Shown: in pieces, positions 3,686 through 58,750 of the stretch
Position numbering within the stretch: the first letter of the stretch is position 1
How the letters are laid out: every line of letters begins with the position of its first letter
Virus record (IMG/VR): IMGVR_UViG_3300037504_000149
Direction: 5' to 3' (one strand)
DNA from: a virus
Lineage: Duplodnaviria; Caudoviricetes
DNA length: 64,000 nt
Notes under the pieces: model-generated
What the model saw: the letters and a program-made list of their open reading frames with translations, nothing else
The model's database searches: none
Told to the model about the DNA's origin: nothing
Translations under genes and position numbers: made by a program

Positions 3686-4024
3686 ATGAGTATTCCCCTG
3701 TACTATGATGACACCAACTGTACCCTCGCCATCGTCCTGACGGAGGAGGCCCTGGATTGTGTGGCCTCCAACACGATCCTCGGTTGCCTGTTCGATGTTT
3801 CCGTCGTACAGGAGAAGAGGGTAGACAAGATATATCTGTGCTTCCCTCCGGCGGAGAACAGGCGCACCATCCTCTTGAATGATTACACCCTCCCCCTGGT
3901 CATCCATGACATCATTGCCATCTTGACTCGATTCCGCGATCGTTTCCCCTCCGGCGTTGAGGAGACTAGGGACTCCAAGAAAATCAAGATGTTCGAGACG
4001 AAATGGGAGCCTCTGCGATGCTGA
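3686..4024 (+). CDS. Hypothetical protein
   Basis: AAGGAG RBS, ORF. Confidence 0.55.
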   Translation: MSIPLYYDDTNCTLAIVLTEEALDCVASNTILGCLFDVSVVQEKRVDKIYLCFPPAENRRTILLNDYTLPLVIHDIIAILTRFRDRFPSGVEETRDSKKIKMFETKWEPLRC

Positions 4025-4088
4025 AGTATAGCAATGCCGTGAAACAGCAAAGCAACCCTACAGAAATTTCATAGAAAGGAGCATAGAG

Positions 4089-4475
4089 ATGTTCAACACA
4101 TTCGACCACGTGGCTGCGGCCACCAATACACTCCTCTCCAGCACCGAAGCACTGAAGGCGGTTCCGGGCATCCTCCAGGACGCCAACGACCTCATCCGAA
4201 TCCGGCTCCAAGCCCGACCTCCCGCCGAGCACCCCAAGGTCCAGATCTTCAAGGATCTCGTTGCGCTGAATGCGATGCGGGAGCATACCGAGGTTTCTAA
4301 GGAACTGGTGGAAGATGCCCTTGCGGATCGGGACACCATCTTCCCCCTGTTCGGCGATCTGGGTATCATCGAAGCCTTCGATCTCATCCGAAACTTGGAA
4401 GAGCTGGGGTGGACCCACATCAAGATCAACTACACAGAACTCCGGTGGGTCAAGAGGGACTACAATACTGAGTAG
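4089..4475 (+). CDS. Hypothetical protein
   Basis: AAGGAG RBS, C/G-ending codon bias. Confidence 0.6.
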   Translation: MFNTFDHVAAATNTLLSSTEALKAVPGILQDANDLIRIRLQARPPAEHPKVQIFKDLVALNAMREHTEVSKELVEDALADRDTIFPLFGDLGIIEAFDLIRNLEELGWTHIKINYTELRWVKRDYNTE

Positions 4476-5399
4476 CTGCCTCCCCGCCCGCCGGGAATGA
4501 TCCTGGCGGGTAGGGATGCTATTACCACACAACCGCCCCCGTGTGGGCAAAGGAGGGTGCGATGAGCAATGATTTGAAGAGTATGATGCTTGACGTTGCC
4601 GCCGATGAATATGGATTTTGGGGTTATACTGATGAGCTGGAGCCCGGTGAGCTGGACGAACTGAAAAGCGCTGCTGAGGAGCTTGACCTGCGTGTGGTAA
4701 TTGAGCACGGCATCCCCGGTGTTTACATTCGACCGCTTGACACTGGTCTTGGAATTAAGGAGGGTGCGATGAGAACCGGAGAAATCTATACACAGCTACA
4801 CAAACTAGAGGTTAAGATCGACAGCATCAAAGGTATGATGCACAATGAATACCAGCGACGGCTTGTCGAGACGACTGAACCGGAATTTTCTAAAGAAATG
4901 AGATCTCTATGGAACACTAAACGCTACTTAGAAATGGCGAGTTCAGCATTACGCGCCGCACAGCATAACTTTACTACCTTGGTATAGCACACTTGTTAGT
5001 AGGGAAAAGGAGGCACAGATGGGTACTTTAGTGCTTTTCGTGTTGCCAGCAAGTCTGTTGGGTTTACTATTGTGTTGGTCTGCGCCTCCCATCATTGCCT
5101 TTCCTGCTGCTATACTTTTTGTGGTAGGTGTATTCACATCAATCATCTACCTATTACTTGATCCTTTTGGGGAGTTTCGTAAATGAGACACCACTTCAAA
5201 CAACCCCAGGATAAGGATGGTAAACCTATCCACATTCAGCAGAGAGTTGCAGTAGACTCTACTCCTGAAGACGTTTGGAAAGGTGGTTTCTCAGGCACGG
5301 TCATTAGAATTATCAGTACCTTTAAGGTTACGGTATCTGATTTGAAGGGTCATGCCTTTGATGTACCTGCACACAAGACAAAAGTTTTGGAAGGTTAAA

Positions 5400-6140
5400 A
5401 TGAATGATGCTCTAGGTGATCGTATGAAGAAGTATGAGAATACTACAAGGTATTACCTACCTCCCCGTACACCTATCATTATTAGAGTAGATGGTAAAGC
5501 CTTTCACACTTATACTAAAAATTGTATAGAACCATTCAGTAATGTTCTAATAAACATAATGAATGAAGTTGGGTTACATCTTTGTGAGAATATCCAGGGT
5601 GCTGAACTAGCATATATTCAAAGTGATGAAATTTCTATATTAGTTCATTACTATAAAAAGTATACTTCATCTGCATGGTTCGATAACAACTTGCAGAAGC
5701 TGGTAAGTGTTTCAGCTAGTCTAGCTACAGAAGCATTCATTAACAGTTTGATGCGGCGTCCCATCGCTTGGCAGTCACAGTTTGGTGGTAAAACACCTAA
5801 CTTTGATAGCCGAGCTTTTTGTATACCAGTAGCGGACGTATGCAATTACTTTATCTGGAGGCAGAAAGATTGGGAACGTAATAGTTTGCAACTACTAGCA
5901 AGAAGTTTATACTCTCATAACGAATTACACGCTAAGAAGCGTGATGAATTGCACGATATGTGTATAGCTAAAGGTAATAACTGGAACCAGCTACCAGGGT
6001 ATTATAAACGAGGTAGATGTGTCAAGTTACTTTGTAATACTGATACTCCTGTTACTAAACGAGAGTGGGTTGTAGAAACTCCTCCCATATTTACTAAAGA
6101 TAGAGATTACGTTGAAGAACATCTGTTTGTTGAACAATGA
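5400..6140 (+). CDS. thg1: tRNA(His) guanylyltransferase Thg1-like protein
   Basis: LGDRMKKYE, IIRVDGKAFHTYT, YIQSDEIS, FDSRAF, YFIWRQKD motifs typical of Thg1/TLP. Confidence 0.92.
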   Translation: MNDALGDRMKKYENTTRYYLPPRTPIIIRVDGKAFHTYTKNCIEPFSNVLINIMNEVGLHLCENIQGAELAYIQSDEISILVHYYKKYTSSAWFDNNLQKLVSVSASLATEAFINSLMRRPIAWQSQFGGKTPNFDSRAFCIPVADVCNYFIWRQKDWERNSLQLLARSLYSHNELHAKKRDELHDMCIAKGNNWNQLPGYYKRGRCVKLLCNTDTPVTKREWVVETPPIFTKDRDYVEEHLFVEQ

Positions 6141-6150
6141 GAGGTATAGT

Positions 6151-6747
6151 ATGTATAATGATGATGGCAAGTTCTGGGTAGTAGCTATTGTCTTATTAGT
6201 AGTTGGACTCGGTATGGGGATAGTTTTACTCAATATAAATATATTCAGGTATGTTCATACCATAAAGAAAGATATTACTGATGAGTCTATAGAAATGGAA
6301 TTTATTAGAACCAAGAATGGGGGTGACCGCTGTGGTAGCTGTTACTTTGGTTGGGATATTTCTTTCCATGATTTATGGTATGCTACTGATATTAGAGAAG
6401 TTATAGATTACCAACACCACAAAAATTATTGTACACTACACGGTATAGAATTTATTTTTGAAGTTGATGGATTCGATGATGTAGATGAGTGGTATATTTG
6501 GTATTCTCCTAAAGTATCATCAGACCGGGTGTGGCTTAAAGCTGATGAATTATCGAACGATATATGGACAACTATATCAAGTTTAGATATATTAGCAAAA
6601 TATGCTATGGTCTATTCTGATAGACTGTACGGCGAGTTCCAAGTATTAGGTATTTCACGTATCGGACAGAACGGTGCTATAACGAAAATATATTATACTA
6701 ATGTTTACTGGATTAAAATTAGTTTTGGAAATACAAAGTTTCCTTGA
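6151..6747 (+). CDS. Membrane-anchored hypothetical protein
   Basis: GAGG RBS; N-terminal hydrophobic helix. Confidence 0.55.
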   Translation: MYNDDGKFWVVAIVLLVVGLGMGIVLLNINIFRYVHTIKKDITDESIEMEFIRTKNGGDRCGSCYFGWDISFHDLWYATDIREVIDYQHHKNYCTLHGIEFIFEVDGFDDVDEWYIWYSPKVSSDRVWLKADELSNDIWTTISSLDILAKYAMVYSDRLYGEFQVLGISRIGQNGAITKIYYTNVYWIKISFGNTKFP

Positions 6748-6772
6748 AAAATCACGCTCGTTATGTTATACT
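6744..6772 (+). promoter_or_regulatory. Sigma70 promoter (TTGAAA-17-TATACT, extended TG)
   Basis: Exact 17-bp spacing; same form recurs ahead of the tRNA cluster at 50450. Confidence 0.75.
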
Positions 6773-6778
6773 GTATTC

Positions 6779-7305
6779 GTACTCGAAGAGATTTCGACCC
6801 GTGCCAGCGTGTCAAAGCTTCGAGTCGTTCGCCCTCCAAGGAACAAGAAATTACTTGGAACGGGAACTGGTGACGGCAACAAGGTACTCTCACAAACCAT
6901 AGAGGACTTGAGTCACTGGGACTGCTTCCCACCAGCGGTTTAATTATTTCTCTACAGGTTTAAAACGTACAACGAACTGCCGTAAGAGTAACGCGCTTGT
7001 GTCCAAAACGCTCCAAAGGTGTAGCGCCTGTGGAACACCAAGGTAGGGTGAGGGGCTTAGTAGGAACGTCTCACCATCTTAAGGTCTGGAAAAAGTTGGT
7101 GCGTGTGTGGTTCTGCTATCACTTGGGGTTGACCACCTCATTAAGGCCAGAAGCGACTGGCTAAAGAGGCTCTAGTAGTCACGTACATACTCATGCGTGA
7201 AAGCCCAGATCTTCCTGCCACGACCCTAATTTGTGAGTAAGCGCGAGTGGGCGCATTAACTCCCGTAGACTTTATGTGGCGTCAGGGAGCTGGAAGGTCG
7301 ATTAC
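6779..7305 (+). ncRNA. Large (~520 nt) highly structured ncRNA candidate, family unassigned
   Basis: No credible ORF; own promoter; many hairpins and long-range pairings (6794-6808 with 7289-7301; CGCGCTTG near 6992 with TAAGCGCG near 7238). Confidence 0.6.
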
Positions 7306-7504
7306 TGCTTGAACTTATAAGGAGAGATATACAAGGTTCATCTTTTGAAACTCGGACACAATGTCCGAAGTGTGGTTCATGGTGTTATGGGCGCACAGAT
7401 ATTGATGCTATGGGACAAGAACATACTACTGGTTACCGTTGCGAACACTGTGGGCACATTTGGGGAATGACGATTTGTGTACAGATGTTTAACTGAGGTG
7501 TTAC

Positions 7505-8125
7505 ATGAAATGTCATCACTTACAATTATATACGGTATATCGTAAATACTACCCCCAACAACATTTTGGTAAAGCAGCACTAGTAAAACTACTCTATTTT
7601 GCTCAAGAAGTTGAAGGCGCTAAGTTAGGTTATAGTTTTGATCTAGAAACATTTGGACCATTCACACAAACAATACTTGACGAATTAGATGATTTGGAGT
7701 GTAAAGGCACTGCTATAGTTAAATATGTTAATGATCATTATGTCATTGACTATTACGATAAGCCAGATTTTATACTACCTGAAATTGAACAAGCTGTTAA
7801 AAAGTTTGGTTATCTGTGTGGTTTTGACATGGAAACATTAGCTACTATACACTTCTTGAGAGATACAAAACCTACCAGAGAAAGTATGTATATTGCAGTG
7901 CATGGTATTAAACCCAGAGTGAATCGTACAACCTTTGATAAGATGTATCGTTTAGCTGTACAGTTTGGTTTAATTCCTGATAGTACATCTCCCGTTTCCA
8001 TTGATTATAAAAAGCGCAAAGAAGCTAAACTATTAGAAGACGATCTAGATTGGCGTACTGAAGAAGAGAAAATACAGGATTATGAAGAGGCTTATATACA
8101 AGTACATAACCGAAAGAGGATATGA
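7505..8125 (+). CDS. SocA/Panacea (DUF4065)-like or DarG C-terminal-like protein
   Basis: ALVKLLYFAQ...FGPFT...METLATIHF pattern. Confidence 0.55.
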   Translation: MKCHHLQLYTVYRKYYPQQHFGKAALVKLLYFAQEVEGAKLGYSFDLETFGPFTQTILDELDDLECKGTAIVKYVNDHYVIDYYDKPDFILPEIEQAVKKFGYLCGFDMETLATIHFLRDTKPTRESMYIAVHGIKPRVNRTTFDKMYRLAVQFGLIPDSTSPVSIDYKKRKEAKLLEDDLDWRTEEEKIQDYEEAYIQVHNRKRI

Positions 8126-9170: not shown

Positions 9171-9288
9171 TTGACAGGGTGGTAGGGTTATGATATAATG
9201 TCCGTGTTGTCGATGAGGGAGGCTCGCAAACAACTACTCAAAAAAGTTGAAAAAATAGGTTGACAAACCTTAAAGAGTGTGATATACT
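9171..9288 (+). promoter_or_regulatory. Tandem strong sigma70 promoters
   Basis: TTGACA-17-TATAAT (9171-9199) and TTGACA-17-TATACT (9260-9288), both with extended TG. Confidence 0.85.
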
Positions 9289-9344
9289 TACCTCGTCGTA
9301 GTCAAGCAACCACCCACAAAGAAGTACCCTTGAAAGGAGTCGCT

Positions 9345-10085
9345 ATGAGCGATAACACTATCAGTCTGGACGCCCTGAACAAGGCTACCAAGGGCCACGA
9401 TTATGTCGTCGGCCAGTCCAACATCTCTTCCCTTCTGGGCCTCAGTGGTCGCGCTGCTCCGAACGTGCGAGAGGCCATCAACAAGGTCGATCCCAAGGCT
9501 CTCAGTAAGGCCAGCGGTAAGAACTCGCCGTGGACCGTGAGCAAGTCTTGGCTGGTCAAGCACACGGACGCTATCCACAGTGCTTACGAGGAACTGTTCC
9601 CCCGTGGTAATGGCGGCGGCAAGACCGGCATCGGTTACGGCGCTATCGGCGACCTCACGGACGCTCTGATCGACAAGATCAGCAAGGGTGACGCCAAGGT
9701 CACCAACGATATGCCCGTCAACCTCCGTGACCTCTTCGTCGAATTCGGCGTGGCGGACGAGGATCTGCCTTCCGCCATCAACAGCGCTGACAATCGCGGC
9801 TACTTCGTCGGTCGCCTCGTCAAGTCCGCTCAGCGGGCGATGGGCGAGAACGCTCCCTCCGTCAAGGAGATCGAGGCCAAGCTGCTCGATAACATCGTCT
9901 CCGTCGAGACCAAGGAGACCAGCCGCAAGATGCGCAACGACAAGGACGGCGAGAAGACTCCCTACACCCTCGAATACGTCCGCTTCAGCATGGGCGCTTT
10001 GACGAAGGCCGTCAAGATGATCGCCGACGCTGATGGGTTCCAGGAAGGCGAAGTCCTCAAGCGCGAGGAAATCTGGACTCCGTAA
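9345..10085 (+). CDS. Probably highly expressed hypothetical protein
   Basis: AAAGGAG RBS, strong C-ending codon bias, two promoters and a terminator. Confidence 0.75.
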   Translation: MSDNTISLDALNKATKGHDYVVGQSNISSLLGLSGRAAPNVREAINKVDPKALSKASGKNSPWTVSKSWLVKHTDAIHSAYEELFPRGNGGGKTGIGYGAIGDLTDALIDKISKGDAKVTNDMPVNLRDLFVEFGVADEDLPSAINSADNRGYFVGRLVKSAQRAMGENAPSVKEIEAKLLDNIVSVETKETSRKMRNDKDGEKTPYTLEYVRFSMGALTKAVKMIADADGFQEGEVLKREEIWTP

Positions 10086-11299: not shown

Positions 11300-11328
11300 T
11301 TGAAATTGAAGCTTCGATGTGTTATACT
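11300..11328 (+). promoter_or_regulatory. Sigma70 promoter upstream of the TnpB/Cas12-like gene
   Basis: TTGAAA-17-TATACT with extended TG; a second TTGACA-17-TATAAC at 11190-11218. Confidence 0.75.
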
Positions 11329-11333
11329 GTTTT

Positions 11334-11600
11334 CAGTGGCTGGCGCGGTGGTGACGACTAACCTCCAGTCATTGAACGGGGATGGGACGCCTCCCCACAT
11401 ACGAGACCCCTCTTGGTAGGTTTTTTGGTAAAAGACCGAGGTAAGGGCTTTCTCCTACAACACTCAAGACGATCCTGGATGAGAGTGTAAACAAGAGTGG
11501 AGTCTGCTACCTGACGAGGTAGTCACAAAGTAGGGTAGCTCCCTCGCCTCCCCCTAGAGTACGGCCATATTCTAGGGGGAGGAGAATAAAAGAGAAGACT
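11334..11600 (+). ncRNA. Structured leader/ncRNA candidate upstream of the nuclease gene
   Basis: ORF-free ~300 nt between promoter and ATG with consecutive hairpins (CAGTGGCTGG/CCAGTCATTG; ACACTC/GAGTGT; CCTCCCCCTAGAGTA/TATTCTAGGGGGAGG). Confidence 0.45.
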
Positions 11601-11637
11601 ATACAAGGACGGGAAACTGCTACTGAAAGATCGGACA

Positions 11638-31980: not shown

Positions 31981-32016
31981 TCCAGCATAAACACAACAAC
32001 AAAAGAAAGGGAACCC

Positions 32017-32700
32017 ATGAAGAAGATCTTATATTTAACTATTGTTTTGTCCATGCCCACCCTTGCCATGTCCTTGCTAAGTGGGGTCTCAGAAGGTGTC
32101 GTTTTTGATTCCACGGGCTTCTCCCCGCTGGACCCGGATATCGTCTATGACACCGGCTACGACTATCCGCTTGAGAACGGTATGGCCACCGACCCCGACA
32201 ACAGCTTTGTCTCGGCTGACGACTTCATCATCTCCAGCGGCGACGGTGAGATCGACTACGTCCTGCTATATTGGATAGAGAAATTCCCCGTCACCAGCCT
32301 GGGCATCACCTTCCGCGACGACAAGGATGGGCGGCCTGGCAATATCATCGAGACCATCGGCTCCAGCGGTTGGTCGATGACCTCCACCGGCGACAGCCAG
32401 TGGGGCTACACCATCTACGAAGTCGAGGCTCCGCTGGACTCGACCTTCGCCTTCACCGAAGGTGTCCATTACTGGTGGCACGTCGATATACCGAGCGGTG
32501 CCTTCGTCTACATGTGCGCCCAGACCAACACCTACGACGAAGAGGTCTACTTCAGCGAAGACGGTGGCAGCACCTGGAGTCCCTCTAGCTCCGATACTTA
32601 TTGGGCTCCCTATGACTTCTGCTTCACCCTGGAAGGATGGCTTGATGGCGATGGCTCCAACGTCGAACCCGTCTCGTGGGGCCAGATCAAGAGCCTCTAA
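32017..32700 (+). CDS. Secreted/surface protein with C-terminal SWGQIK motif
   Basis: Signal peptide; SADDF; ends VEPVSWGQIKSL; GC-rich body. Confidence 0.7.
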   Translation: MKKILYLTIVLSMPTLAMSLLSGVSEGVVFDSTGFSPLDPDIVYDTGYDYPLENGMATDPDNSFVSADDFIISSGDGEIDYVLLYWIEKFPVTSLGITFRDDKDGRPGNIIETIGSSGWSMTSTGDSQWGYTIYEVEAPLDSTFAFTEGVHYWWHVDIPSGAFVYMCAQTNTYDEEVYFSEDGGSTWSPSSSDTYWAPYDFCFTLEGWLDGDGSNVEPVSWGQIKSL

Positions 32701-33875
32701 TCTTGGTTATGGGGCCGGAGCCTTCCGGTTTCGGCCCCACCCAACAAAAGGAGAAAAAGATGAAAAAAAGCATTCTCGGCATTATTGCAGAAGCCGAAAG
32801 GGCGCTGCAAGATTATGACAACGGAGACAAGCGCAGCGCGAAAAAGTGCTTGAAGAATATTTGGATCACAGCGGGAGCAGCACATACTTTAGTATTGCCA
32901 TCTTCGGAGGGTAATACTGAGGAATAAAGATACTACATAAAACAAAAAGGAGATAACGATGCCAGAGACTACACCAGAACATAAGAATGAAAAAATATGT
33001 TATACAGTGATAGGAGACACAGAAGTTTCTAAGGGAACATATTGTCCACTTTATGCTATTGCGGCGGCTATGGCAGCAGTGGCTGGAGCACCCGTGGACG
33101 CGTCATTAGAAACCTGTCGAGGCAGTGACTGTGAACTTTGGAACCCCGAAACACACAGATGTGGGTTAAGACAGTGAATATCCGGGGCCGTCTTTTATCC
33201 CAACAACAAAAGGAGATAGAAATGACACGCAATGGCCTACTGGAAAGGATGGAGAAAAGATGAAATATATTATTAAGATCGAGGCCAAATCATTCAAAAG
33301 AGAAAGGGAGAGTTCCCCCGACTTCCACCGCTGGAGACCATGTCAGGCCACCAACCTGACCACCGCAAAGGAAGAAGCGATCCGAGTGCTGGGGCCATCG
33401 GCCCGCAACGACGATCGGCTTGTCATCGCACTTGATCGCGGCAAGGGTAATTATTATGAAGTCGCCACTAAGGTAGGGAACTGTTGGTTTTACCGTCCCC
33501 CATTTCCCTTGGGGCGCAGTCTTGGTCGATAGATTCGCCCCAGCGGGCAAAACAAAAGGATAACTAATGAGAAAAGAACACGCAGATAAAGGGACATCAT
33601 TACTAGAAGAATTCCGGATTGTAATGAGTTTTACACTGATAGGTGCTTTATTATGTAATATTTTTGAGTGGGATCCAGCAGTTACAGGAATCTTTTTCTG
33701 TTTCTCTATCTTCGTTATTGTATTGCTACGAGGCATAGCAAACATAGGAGTAGGAGGGTGTCTGTGGATCTTGGGGTCTTTACTTCCCCTCGCTGGAATA
33801 ATATATTTTTCTACTTTAGTATAGTAACATCTAAGAGAGATAATAACGTAAACCACAACAACAGAAGGAGATAAG

Positions 33876-47129: not shown

Positions 47130-47221
47130 GGAAGGGTTGACCCCAGTAGGTGCGGGAAGCAGTCTTGAAAACTGTTGATCGTTAACGCGATTTGTGGGTT
47201 CGAGTCCCACCCCTTCCGCCA
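47130..47221 (+). tRNA. tRNA-Ser(TGA)
   Basis: Cloverleaf, long variable arm, GTTCGA, CCA. Confidence 0.9.
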
Positions 47222-58674: not shown

Positions 58675-58750
58675 GGGAGAAGTAGTCTAACGGTCAAGAC
58701 AACTGGTTGTGGCCCAGTCGATTCCAGTTCAACTCTGGACTTCTCCCCCA
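58675..58750 (+). tRNA. tRNA-His(GTG) with encoded G-1
   Basis: G-1 plus GGAGAAG/CTTCTCC stem, C73, CCA. Confidence 0.88.

What the first reader, a model, noticed from the sequence alone, without database searches (positions are those of the whole stretch)
6744..7305. ~520-nt ornate noncoding RNA candidate with its own promoter and a 5'-3' pseudoknot
Seen: an ORF-poor, GC-richer tract after a promoter of the same form as the tRNA-cluster promoter. Hairpin ACTCGAAG (6781-6788)/CTTCGAGT (6818-6825) has a loop containing TCGACC and CCAGC, which are complementary to GCTGG-AA-GGTCGA at 7289-7301. Other nested stems: TCCAAG/CTTGGA, TGGTGAC/GTCACTG, CGCGCTTG/TAAGCGCG (~245 nt apart), GGTGAG/CTCACC, GGTCTGG/CCAGATC, GGCCAG/CTGGCT, CTCCC/GGGAG. 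Known: tRNA-rich phages and prophages carry large ornate RNAs such as ROOL and GOLLD. I do not recognise RNase P, tmRNA or intron cores here. Inference: a member of such a class or a new one.
Basis: partly seen in the sequence, partly recalled or inferred. Interest (0 to 1): 0.75.

Follow-up and report, generated by a model that had tools for sequence, protein, structure and literature searches.

The report
Promoter-driven noncoding tract in jumbo phage
A gene-free stretch of about 510 bases behind a genuine phage promoter is probably made into RNA, but the elaborate fold and end-to-end knot proposed for it are not supported, and it is known from only two closely related phage lineages.

Summary
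The described sequence is there. It has a sigma-70-type promoter with an extended -10 (6744-6772), followed by 510 nt (6779-7289) with no credible ORF. GC is 50.5%, against 34-37% in the flanks. The named stems and the loop/3' complementarity sit at the stated coordinates.

The promoter belongs to a real family in this genome: 11 hits, all on the + strand, against 0.68 expected. No protein family and no Rfam family matches, including ROOL, GOLLD, OLE, RNase P, tmRNA and introns.

The "ornate fold" claim fails its own tests. Folding is no more stable than shuffles (z = +0.21). Homologs exist only in Logan contigs from one group of consecutively numbered runs, and they form a single second lineage about 9% diverged. 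That lineage gives 3-4 compensatory pairs, which is not clearly above shuffled expectation.

The module ends exactly at 7289. In one relative a foreign gene cassette is inserted there. The proposed 3' pseudoknot arm (7289-7301) therefore straddles the 7289|7290 boundary, with all but G7289 in the next module, the leader of a zinc-ribbon gene.

Conservation is uneven: 5' 172 nt 5%, middle 189 nt 18% plus indels, 3' 150 nt 2%.

Best reading: a clade-restricted non-coding transcription unit, acting either as a stable RNA or as a long leader. Its function is unproven.

The parts
6744..6772 (+). Promoter: -35 TTGAAA, 17-nt spacer, TG-extended -10 TATACT. The start is predicted near G6779.
   Evidence: the family TTGAMW-N16-18-TATAMT gives 11 hits, all on the + strand, against 0.68 expected; 18 nt identical to the tRNA-Phe promoter; kept in L047.
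6779..6950 (+). 5' domain of four local hairpins. P1 is 6781-6788/6818-6825 and is invariant. P2 is 6832-6840/6854-6864. P3 is 6867-6890/6901-6919. P4 is 6920-6926/6934-6940, followed by a U-rich tail that looks like a weak terminator.
   Evidence: There are 9 substitutions in 172 nt against lineage B. One pair in P2 is compensated (U-A to C-G), and one pair in P3 changes from U.G to C-G. The terminator-like site is flagged.
6951..7139 (+). Fast-evolving middle segment.
   Evidence: 32 substitutions in 181 aligned nt (17.7%) plus 8 gap columns. This is above the four-fold-site rate of the neighbouring genes, 14.5%. It holds the helices with most of the structure-keeping changes: 6951-6958/7027-7034 and 7044-7058/7066-7081.
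7140..7289 (+). Strongly conserved 3' domain of three hairpins: 7145-7162, 7168-7205 and 7211-7289.
   Evidence: 3 substitutions in 150 nt (2.0%). The probability under the 14.5% rate is 2e-7. The domain is among the 6% best-kept 150-nt windows of the A/B comparison. The fold is (z = -1.23).
7289..7290 (.). Module boundary and natural recombination junction.
   Evidence: L047 is homologous up to G7289 and then carries an unrelated cassette. L001 is homologous from C7290 onward.
7289..7301 (+). The proposed 3' pseudoknot arm GCTGG-AA-GGTCGA. All but G7289 belongs to the leader of the next gene.
7319..7496 (+). Next module: RBS AAGGAGAG (7319-7326) and a 55-codon zinc-ribbon ORF (7329-7496). ATA stands at the start position, where relative L049 has ATG.
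5352..6747 (+). Upstream genes that travel with the module in every copy found: a Thg1-like gene (5352-6140) and a 198-aa membrane-anchored protein (6151-6747). The stop codon of the latter overlaps the -35 box.

Best explanation
The tract is a clade-restricted, moron-like non-coding transcription unit of an uncultivated phage of about 230 kb.

Mechanism, with the status of each step:
- Inferred from a well-supported promoter: host RNA polymerase starts at the extended -10 promoter near G6779.
- Inferred: the transcript forms mainly local hairpins. These are a 5' block of four hairpins and a well-conserved 3' block of three, joined by a freely evolving spacer.
- Shown by sequence: no canonical terminator closes the unit.
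- Inferred: the RNA is therefore either released by a weak terminator-like hairpin at 6920-6950, or cut out of a read-through transcript that continues into the zinc-ribbon operon.
- Inferred, target unknown: the conserved 5' and 3' blocks are the functional RNA parts, acting in trans as a stable RNA.

The unit is not a member of any described RNA family. It has not been shown to be an 'ornate' RNA.
For: - Promoter: it belongs to a strongly enriched family that lies only on the + strand, is identical over 18 nt to the tRNA-operon promoter, and is kept in lineage B.
- Non-coding character: no frame exceeds 86 aa. Substitutions fall 9/8/9 by position mod 3. Indel runs are 2, 3, 3 and 2 columns against L047, plus a 1-nt deletion in the L004 copy. 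Pfam, PHROG and NCBIfam give no significant match in any frame (best E 0.076). There is no paralog. The only hit in 1.84 billion representatives is a repeat-protein artefact.
- Discrete unit: all five copies keep Thg1, the 198-aa gene and this module together. A foreign cassette sits exactly after the terminal hairpin in L047/L001.
- Sequence constraint: P1 has 0 changes in 47 nt, and the 3' domain has 3 in 150, against 14.5% at four-fold sites.
- Structure-keeping changes: four pairs are changed on both sides, 12 pairs change on one side and still pair, and 4 cells are unpaired. Shuffles give 1.0 +/- 0.9 pairs changed on both sides, and slid controls give 0-1.
- Strand: the + strand does better than the - strand. 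The alifold energy is -145.9 against -131.8. In the middle domain the + strand has 2 compensated and 3 broken pairs, the - strand 0 and 8.
- Composition: GC is 50% in a 34-37% background, as for the tRNA genes.
Against: - No excess thermodynamic stability.
- The structure predicted from the window copy alone is not kept better than chance by lineage-B substitutions: 12 pairs kept and 19 broken, against a null of 12.9 and 14.4.
- With the alifold selection bias controlled by column shuffles, the compensated pairs are 3 against 1.07, and 11 of 150 shuffles do as well.
- There are only two effective lineages, and no homolog in any other collection.
- The well-kept blocks could instead be recent recombination tracts. 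Five of 84 neighbouring 150-nt windows are equally well kept.
- There is no terminator at 7289.
- No expression data could be obtained.
Confidence: 0.4

Rival explanations
1. The tract is a long cis-acting 5' leader of the zinc-ribbon / 206-aa operon. On this reading the 510 nt are not an independent RNA. The invariant P1 loop (6794-6808) pairs with 7289-7301, which lies 18 nt upstream of the ribosome-binding site. This closes the leader into one large domain and tunes stability or translation of a gene that starts with the weak codon ATA.
For: - There is no terminator between the promoter and the zinc-ribbon gene, and no other + strand promoter match between 6772 and 7824.
- The 6+5 bp complementarity gives -18.5 kcal/mol, which only 1.5% of shuffled arms reach. 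It is the only such site on the + strand in 64 kb.
- Both partners are invariant in lineages A and B2.
- A 300-nt ORF-free leader with the same promoter form precedes the TnpB-like gene at 11300-11637, so long leaders occur in this phage.
Against: - In L047/L001 a cassette of more than 1.6 kb, with terminator-like hairpins, separates the RNA from the arm. One arm base also differs there. The insertion is recent, because B1 and B2 are about 99% alike, so this argument is weak.
- The module is linked to the upstream genes in all copies, not to the downstream gene.
- Other leaders in this genome that could be measured are about 30-80 nt.
- No covariation can test the pairing, because both sides are invariant.
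Confidence: 0.25
2. The tract has no RNA function. It is a foreign or leftover spacer of intermediate GC content that happens to lie between a working promoter and the genes the promoter serves. The conserved blocks reflect recent recombination between lineages, or DNA-level sites.
For: - No excess folding stability.
- The middle 189 nt diverge faster than four-fold sites.
- Identity along this genome pair is mosaic, 76-99% per 100 nt.
- The phage carries many GC-rich islands.
- The slot is variable: L002 has two unrelated genes there.
- The single-sequence structure is not kept.
Against: - The 3' block, at 2% divergence, is in the best-kept 6% of windows, and unlike the others it is non-coding.
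- P1 is invariant over 47 nt.
- Structure-keeping changes outnumber disruptive ones in local helices.
- The + strand is favoured over the - strand.
Confidence: 0.2
3. The tract is a decayed or unconventional protein-coding gene.
For: A gene caller placed an 80-aa ORF at 6701-6943 on the source contig. A 66-aa frame spans the middle segment.
Against: - The 80-aa ORF forms a cluster of one.
- Six-frame searches of Pfam, PHROG and NCBIfam give no significant match (best E 0.076).
- There is no real hit for the 66-aa frame among 1.84 billion representatives.
- There is no codon periodicity, and lineage B carries frame-breaking indels.
Confidence: 0.04
4. The tract is a very diverged member of a described RNA family, such as GOLLD, ROOL, RNase P RNA, tmRNA or an intron.
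For: The setting is right: a tRNA-rich phage. GOLLD is also described as having a conserved 3' part and a less conserved 5' part (bioRxiv 10.1101/2024.12.08.627333).
Against: cmscan of all 4227 Rfam models with relaxed filters gives nothing inside 6744-7305 except a 27-nt chance match to a human lncRNA model (E = 3.9), and nothing at all on the L047 copy. ARAGORN finds no tmRNA.
Confidence: 0.03

Closest known systems
ROOL and GOLLD (large RNAs of phages and prophages, often near tRNA islands; Rfam families; cryo-EM nanocages, bioRxiv 10.1101/2024.12.08.627333)
   Same: A phage-borne non-coding tract several hundred nt long in a tRNA-rich genome, with no known partner. As described for GOLLD, the 3' part is better conserved than the 5'/middle part.
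   Different: There is no covariance-model match at all. It is 47 kb from the first tRNA of the cluster that shares its promoter form. It has no demonstrated multi-stem architecture or pseudoknots. It occurs in two lineages, not across many taxa.
Small stable RNAs co-encoded with phage tRNA genes (T4 species 1 and species 2 RNAs; recalled from memory, not checked here)
   Same: Non-coding RNAs of unknown role expressed by the same kind of promoter as the phage tRNAs.
   Different: The T4 RNAs lie inside the tRNA cluster, are about 140 nt long, and are processed like tRNAs. This tract is 510 nt, lies outside the cluster, and has no tRNA-like element.
Long structured 5' leaders of bacterial and phage operons
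   Same: A promoter, several hundred nt without an ORF, no terminator, then an RBS and a gene. The 5' end is complementary to the region just before the RBS.
   Different: No riboswitch, T-box or attenuator family matches. The unit is separable from the downstream gene in a natural variant.
The ORF-free leader before the TnpB-like gene of the same phage (11300-11637)
   Same: The same promoter form (TTGAAA-N17-TGTTATACTGT), GC about 50%, ORF-free, no Rfam match, and moderately conserved in lineage B at 4.2%.
   Different: There is no sequence similarity between the two. That leader abuts a nuclease gene which may use it as a guide or scaffold RNA.

Membership tests
ROOL (Rfam) | Match to the family covariance model (sequence plus multi-pseudoknot structure). 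| tested here: not met
   cmscan of all Rfam 15 models gave no hit at gathering score, and none at E <= 10 on 6500-7600 or on the L047 copy.
GOLLD (Rfam) | Match to the family covariance model, above all its universally conserved 3' half. | tested here: not met
   no hit.
GOLLD / ROOL | Location next to or inside tRNA arrays in phages or prophages. | tested here: inconclusive
   This is a phage with 18 tRNA genes in the window. The nearest one is 40 kb away (47130), although the promoter is shared with the tRNA-Phe operon.
OLE, HEARO, raiA and other large bacterial ncRNAs (Rfam) | Covariance-model match. | tested here: not met
RNase P RNA / tmRNA | Covariance-model match; for tmRNA also a tRNA-like domain and a tag reading frame. 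| tested here: not met
   Rfam; ARAGORN.
Group I / group II introns | Catalytic core match and flanking exons of a split gene. | tested here: not met
   There is no Rfam hit. The upstream ORF ends at 6747 and the zinc-ribbon frame is open only from 7269. Relatives show that the two sides are independent modules.
Structured ncRNA in general (conserved fold) | Statistically supported covariation among homologs. | tested here: inconclusive
   There are two lineages only. Three or four compensated pairs are seen, against about 1 expected. The shuffle tests give 11/150 and 2/500 (on a structure derived from the same sequences). The unbiased single-sequence test is negative.
Structured ncRNA in general | Folding energy below that of dinucleotide shuffles. 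| tested here: not met
   z = +0.21 for the whole tract, and -1.18, +1.32 and -1.23 for the domains.
Intrinsically terminated sRNA (5' domain alone) | A GC-rich hairpin followed directly by a U tract. | tested here: inconclusive
   6919-6941 plus its tail is flagged as terminator-like in both lineages. However, the stem has only 3 G-C pairs, and the U run is broken by AA.
Type III toxin-antitoxin RNA | Tandem direct repeats of the antitoxin RNA upstream of the toxin gene. | tested here: not met
   There are no direct repeats beyond one 10-nt pair.

The most novel reading that the evidence does not exclude
The tract is the founding member of a new class of large phage RNA with a two-block architecture: a conserved 5' four-hairpin block and a conserved 3' three-hairpin block joined by a hypervariable linker. 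It is carried as a mobile cargo unit together with a Thg1-like 3'-5' polymerase. It would act in trans, for instance as a scaffold or decoy in phage tRNA/RNA-repair biology or as an RNA-only assembly like ROOL and GOLLD.
Probability: 0.15. Interest if true: 0.7.

Novelty: new variant of a known kind. Interest (0 to 1): 0.35.

Why it matters
Large non-coding RNAs of phages such as ROOL and GOLLD are few, and their functions are unknown. Each new, unrelated example helps to ask what such RNAs do. This tract would add a promoter-driven RNA cargo unit that travels with a Thg1-like enzyme in a jumbo phage already rich in RNA genes (tRNAs, and by earlier notes Y RNAs and guide-type RNAs). As it stands, the case is weak. 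The element is confined to two near-identical lineages, its fold is unproven, and the most striking claim, an end-to-end pseudoknot, rests on a sequence that mostly belongs to the neighbouring gene's leader. The practical value of this report is to set the true boundaries (6744-7289), to separate what is constrained from what is not, and to name the cheap experiments that would settle the question.

Tried and rejected
1. Known RNA families. Rfam was run at gathering scores on the window and on L001-L003, and at E <= 10 on 6500-7600, on the L047 copy and on L002. Nothing relevant was found.

2. Public phage records. blastn and megablast gave no match.

3. Whole-genome search. No genome is held for this window or for L002.

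4. Sequencing runs and expression.

5. Collection scans with flanking proteins:
- The 211-aa and 206-aa proteins in viral contigs found nothing.
- Thg1 in viral contigs gave 14 loci at <= 47% identity. None has a similar RNA by blastn or by the covariance model of the 3' domain, and none has a comparable GC-rich gap next to Thg1.
- The 198-aa alignment in metagenome contigs found nothing.

6. Collection scans with exact DNA words from invariant parts. Viral contigs was scanned three times and genome contigs twice, with no hit. The metagenome-contig scan gave 28 hits, all of them chance 19-22-mers in unrelated GC-rich DNA.

7. Sequence profile and covariance model. An nhmmer profile of the three full copies and a covariance model of the 3' domain were run against all held loci and the rest of the window. 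They found only the known copies.

8. Pseudogene idea. This was tested with six-frame read-through scans, tblastn of 1211 ORFs from the window and related loci, and an exhaustive search with the 66-aa frame. No real relative was found. The one hit was a summed-repeat artefact.

9. Remnant of a TnpB gene. This was suggested by a weak zinc-ribbon/TNB match at E = 0.007. It was rejected because the zinc ribbon is generic and nothing in the tract resembles the phage's own TnpB-like protein.

10. RNAduplex of the whole RNA against the whole leader. The result was uninformative, because the allowed loops were huge.

11. My recollection that the 206-aa protein looks like a Panacea/SocA antitoxin domain. 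Pfam does not support it.

Full report
WHAT IS IN THE SEQUENCE

The window comes from a contig of 229,864 bp from JGI/IMG. It carries 18 tRNA genes and matches no deposited phage. No whole genome is held for it.

At 6744-6772 there is a -35 TTGAAA, a 17-nt spacer, and a TG-extended -10 TATACT. The pattern TTGAMW-N16-18-TATAMT occurs 11 times in the window, always on the + strand, against 0.68 expected. These sites drive both protein genes and the two tRNA operons.

Eighteen bases, 6762-6779, are identical to the promoter in front of tRNA-Phe. The promoter claim is therefore sound, and a start near G6779 is likely. Other leaders in this genome that could be measured are about 30-80 nt.

From 6779 to 7289 no stop-to-stop frame exceeds 86 aa. 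GC is 0.505, against 0.336 and 0.372 in the flanking genes.

IS IT MORE THAN CHANCE?

By thermodynamics it is not. The whole tract folds at -165 kcal/mol, against -166.5 +/- 6.8 for dinucleotide shuffles, so z = +0.21. The three sub-domains give z = -1.18, +1.32 and -1.23, and the minus strand gives -0.81.

No Rfam family matches at gathering score or at E <= 10, for this copy or for the relative's copy. ARAGORN finds nothing in the tract.

IS IT CODING?

It is not.
- Pfam on ten frames, and PHROG and NCBIfam on six read-through frames, give no significant match (the best is a chance NCBIfam match at E 0.076).
- No ORF from the window or from related loci resembles it.
- The 66-aa frame of the middle segment, searched against 1.84 billion representatives, hits only a 2175-aa repeat protein. 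About 40 repeats in that protein each score near zero, so the hit is a summed artefact.
- Between lineages the substitutions fall 9/8/9 by position mod 3. The indel runs are 2, 3, 3 and 2 columns against L047, plus a 1-nt deletion in the L004 copy.

RELATIVES

Homologs were reached only through proteins of the neighbouring genes and their contigs.
- L050 (SRR12689834) is identical to the window.
- L047 (complete copy), L048 and L004 (5' parts) and L049 (3' part) come from three consecutively numbered runs, SRR25621639, SRR25621648 and SRR25621649.
- These four are about 99% identical to one another and about 9% diverged from the window. There are therefore only two effective lineages, A and B.
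- A more distant relative (L002/L003, 26-40% protein identity) has a 112-aa gene and a HicB-like gene in the slot, and no such tract.

Scans of viral, metagenome and genome collections with flanking proteins, and with exact words from invariant parts, found no further copy. A profile and a covariance model found none in the 235 kb held.

BOUNDARIES

Lineage B exists in two arrangements.

In L004+L049 the tract runs straight into the zinc-ribbon gene, as in the window.

In L047 the homology stops exactly after ...CAGGGAG (window 7289), and an unrelated cassette follows. The cassette has a -35-like TTGACA box, an RBS and a signal-peptide protein related to window 32018-32700.

L001, from the same run, shows the far end of that cassette, with terminator-like hairpins. 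It then resumes homology at CTGGAAGGTCGA (window 7290).

The unit is therefore 6744-7289. The proposed 3' arm of the pseudoknot (7289-7301) straddles a natural recombination junction, and all of it except G7289 belongs to the 39-nt leader of the next gene. That leader is invariant in all copies.

The insertion is recent, because B1 and B2 are nearly identical. It defines the module boundary but does not prove that the pairing is dispensable.

The pairing itself gives -18.5 kcal/mol. Only 1.5% of shuffled arms do as well, and it is the only such site on the + strand in 64 kb. It is mildly unusual, it cannot be tested by covariation, and it fits a leader-type interaction better than an intramolecular knot of a free RNA.

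CONSERVATION

The yardstick is the pooled four-fold sites of eight neighbouring genes, 79 of 546 changed, or 14.5%. Against it the tract is uneven:

| Segment | Changes | Divergence | P under 14.5% |
|---|---|---|---|
| P1 hairpin 6779-6825 | 0 of 47 | 0% | 6e-4 |
| 6826-6950 | 9 of 125 | 7.2% | 0.0096 |
| 6951-7139 | 32 of 181, plus 8 gap columns | 17.7% | 0.9 |
| 7140-7289 | 3 of 150 | 2.0% | 2e-7 |

Among 84 neighbouring 150-nt windows the median is 11 differences, and only five windows have 3 or fewer. The 3' block is thus among the best-kept stretches of the region, and unlike the others it is non-coding. The middle segment is the most diverged stretch.

This pattern argues for function in the two end blocks. 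A recent recombination tract cannot be excluded, because identity along these genomes is mosaic.

COVARIATION

RNAalifold on the copies proposes mainly local helices. On that structure there are 135 pairs and 99.2% of cells are paired. Four pairs are changed on both sides, 12 pairs change on one side and still pair, and four cells are unpaired. Shuffles of partners give 1.0 +/- 0.9 double changes (2 of 500 reach four), and slid controls give 0-1.

Good examples:
- U6835-A6859 becomes C-G in P2.
- The helix 6951-6958/7027-7034 has four substitutions that all keep pairing.
- Two C-to-U changes give G.U pairs in 7044-7058/7066-7081.

The + strand does better than the - strand.

Three cautions apply.
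- The structure was derived from the same sequences.
- When whole alignments are column-shuffled and refolded, 11 of 150 reach three compensated pairs.
- The fold predicted from the window copy alone is not kept better than random placement of the same substitutions: 12 kept and 19 broken, against 12.9 and 14.4.

With two lineages the test has little power. The result is suggestive for a few local hairpins and says nothing for an ornate global fold.

MOST LIKELY READING

The tract is a clade-restricted non-coding transcription unit that travels with a Thg1-like gene and a 198-aa membrane protein. It is transcribed from a strong host-type promoter. Sequence constraint is concentrated in a 5' four-hairpin block and a 3' three-hairpin block.

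It lacks a terminator at its end. A weak terminator-like hairpin lies at 6919-6950 in both lineages. The RNA is therefore either released there or processed from a read-through transcript that continues into the zinc-ribbon gene.

My estimates:

| Reading | Probability |
|---|---|
| Independent stable RNA | 0.40 |
| Purely cis-acting long leader using the P1-loop/arm pairing | 0.25 |
| Functionless spacer | 0.20 |
| Hidden coding gene | 0.04 |
| Diverged known family | 0.03 |

COMPARISON WITH KNOWN SYSTEMS

ROOL and GOLLD are the obvious comparators. They are large RNAs of phages and prophages, often near tRNA islands. [quoted passage not shown]

The resemblance is in setting only. The defining covariance models do not match, so membership is rejected.

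Within the same phage, the 300-nt ORF-free leader with the same promoter form in front of the TnpB-like gene (11300-11637) is the nearest analogue. It shares no sequence with this tract.

VERDICT

The claims of an ornate fold and a 5'-3' pseudoknot are not supported. If it is a functional RNA, it is a new, very narrowly distributed family. Interest is modest until expression data or more diverse copies exist.

Noticed in passing
window 7319-7496; L049 289-450; L001 879-1064: A small zinc-ribbon gene (CPKC...CEHC) follows a strong RBS but has ATA at the start position (7329) in the window and in L001. Relative L049 has ATG at the same position. Changes between copies are mostly synonymous, so the gene looks live. 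The lineage-B copies also carry a 21-nt in-frame insertion after codon 2 and a 1-nt deletion near the 3' end that shortens the protein.
   Followed up: partly
L047 3320-4099 and L001 1-850 (junction at window 7289|7290): In one lineage-B phage a GC-rich (about 67%) cassette is inserted exactly between the RNA module and the zinc-ribbon leader. It encodes a signal-peptide protein related (70-85% DNA identity in parts) to window 32018-32700, followed by terminator-like hairpins. There is no target-site duplication.
   Followed up: partly
window 11300-11637; L002 9633-10721: The same promoter form (TTGAAA-N17-TGTTATACTGT) precedes about 300 nt of ORF-free, 50% GC sequence in front of the TnpB-like gene. 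The distant relative L002 has about 1,070 ORF-free nt with two promoter-like sites at that place. Neither matches Rfam, and the two do not align by blastn.
   Followed up: partly
window 5352-6140 and 58675-58750: The phage encodes a Thg1-like 3'-5' nucleotidyl transferase (Pfam E 3e-28). Yet its own tRNA-His already has an encoded G-1 (G58675) opposite C73, and an encoded CCA. The enzyme may therefore serve 5'-end repair rather than G-1 addition.
   Followed up: partly
window 6151-6747; L002 3318-3899: The 198-aa protein upstream of the tract has an N-terminal membrane helix. It evolves fast (23% amino-acid divergence between lineages, against 8% at four-fold sites). It has a distant homolog in L002 (26% identity, shared C-terminal YYTN.YW motif) and no family match.
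   Followed up: partly
window 4000-4700, 9279-10085, 32000-33000: There are GC-rich islands (55-62% GC) in a genome of about 40% GC. At 9279-10085, long ORFs are open on both strands (268 and 266 aa), and gene callers chose different strands in different copies.
   Followed up: no
window 47130-47221: Rfam calls this a tRNA-Sec (51.1 bits, cutoff 47). ARAGORN calls it tRNA-Ser with anticodon TGA. It is probably a long-arm tRNA-Ser, not a selenocysteine tRNA.
   Followed up: no
window 7328, 11600, 16035, 46093: The 9-mer TATACAAGG occurs four times, all on the + strand (0.78 expected). Two of the sites lie just after an RBS-like AGGAGA, at the ends of the two long ORF-free leaders. No common context was seen at the other two sites.
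   Followed up: partly
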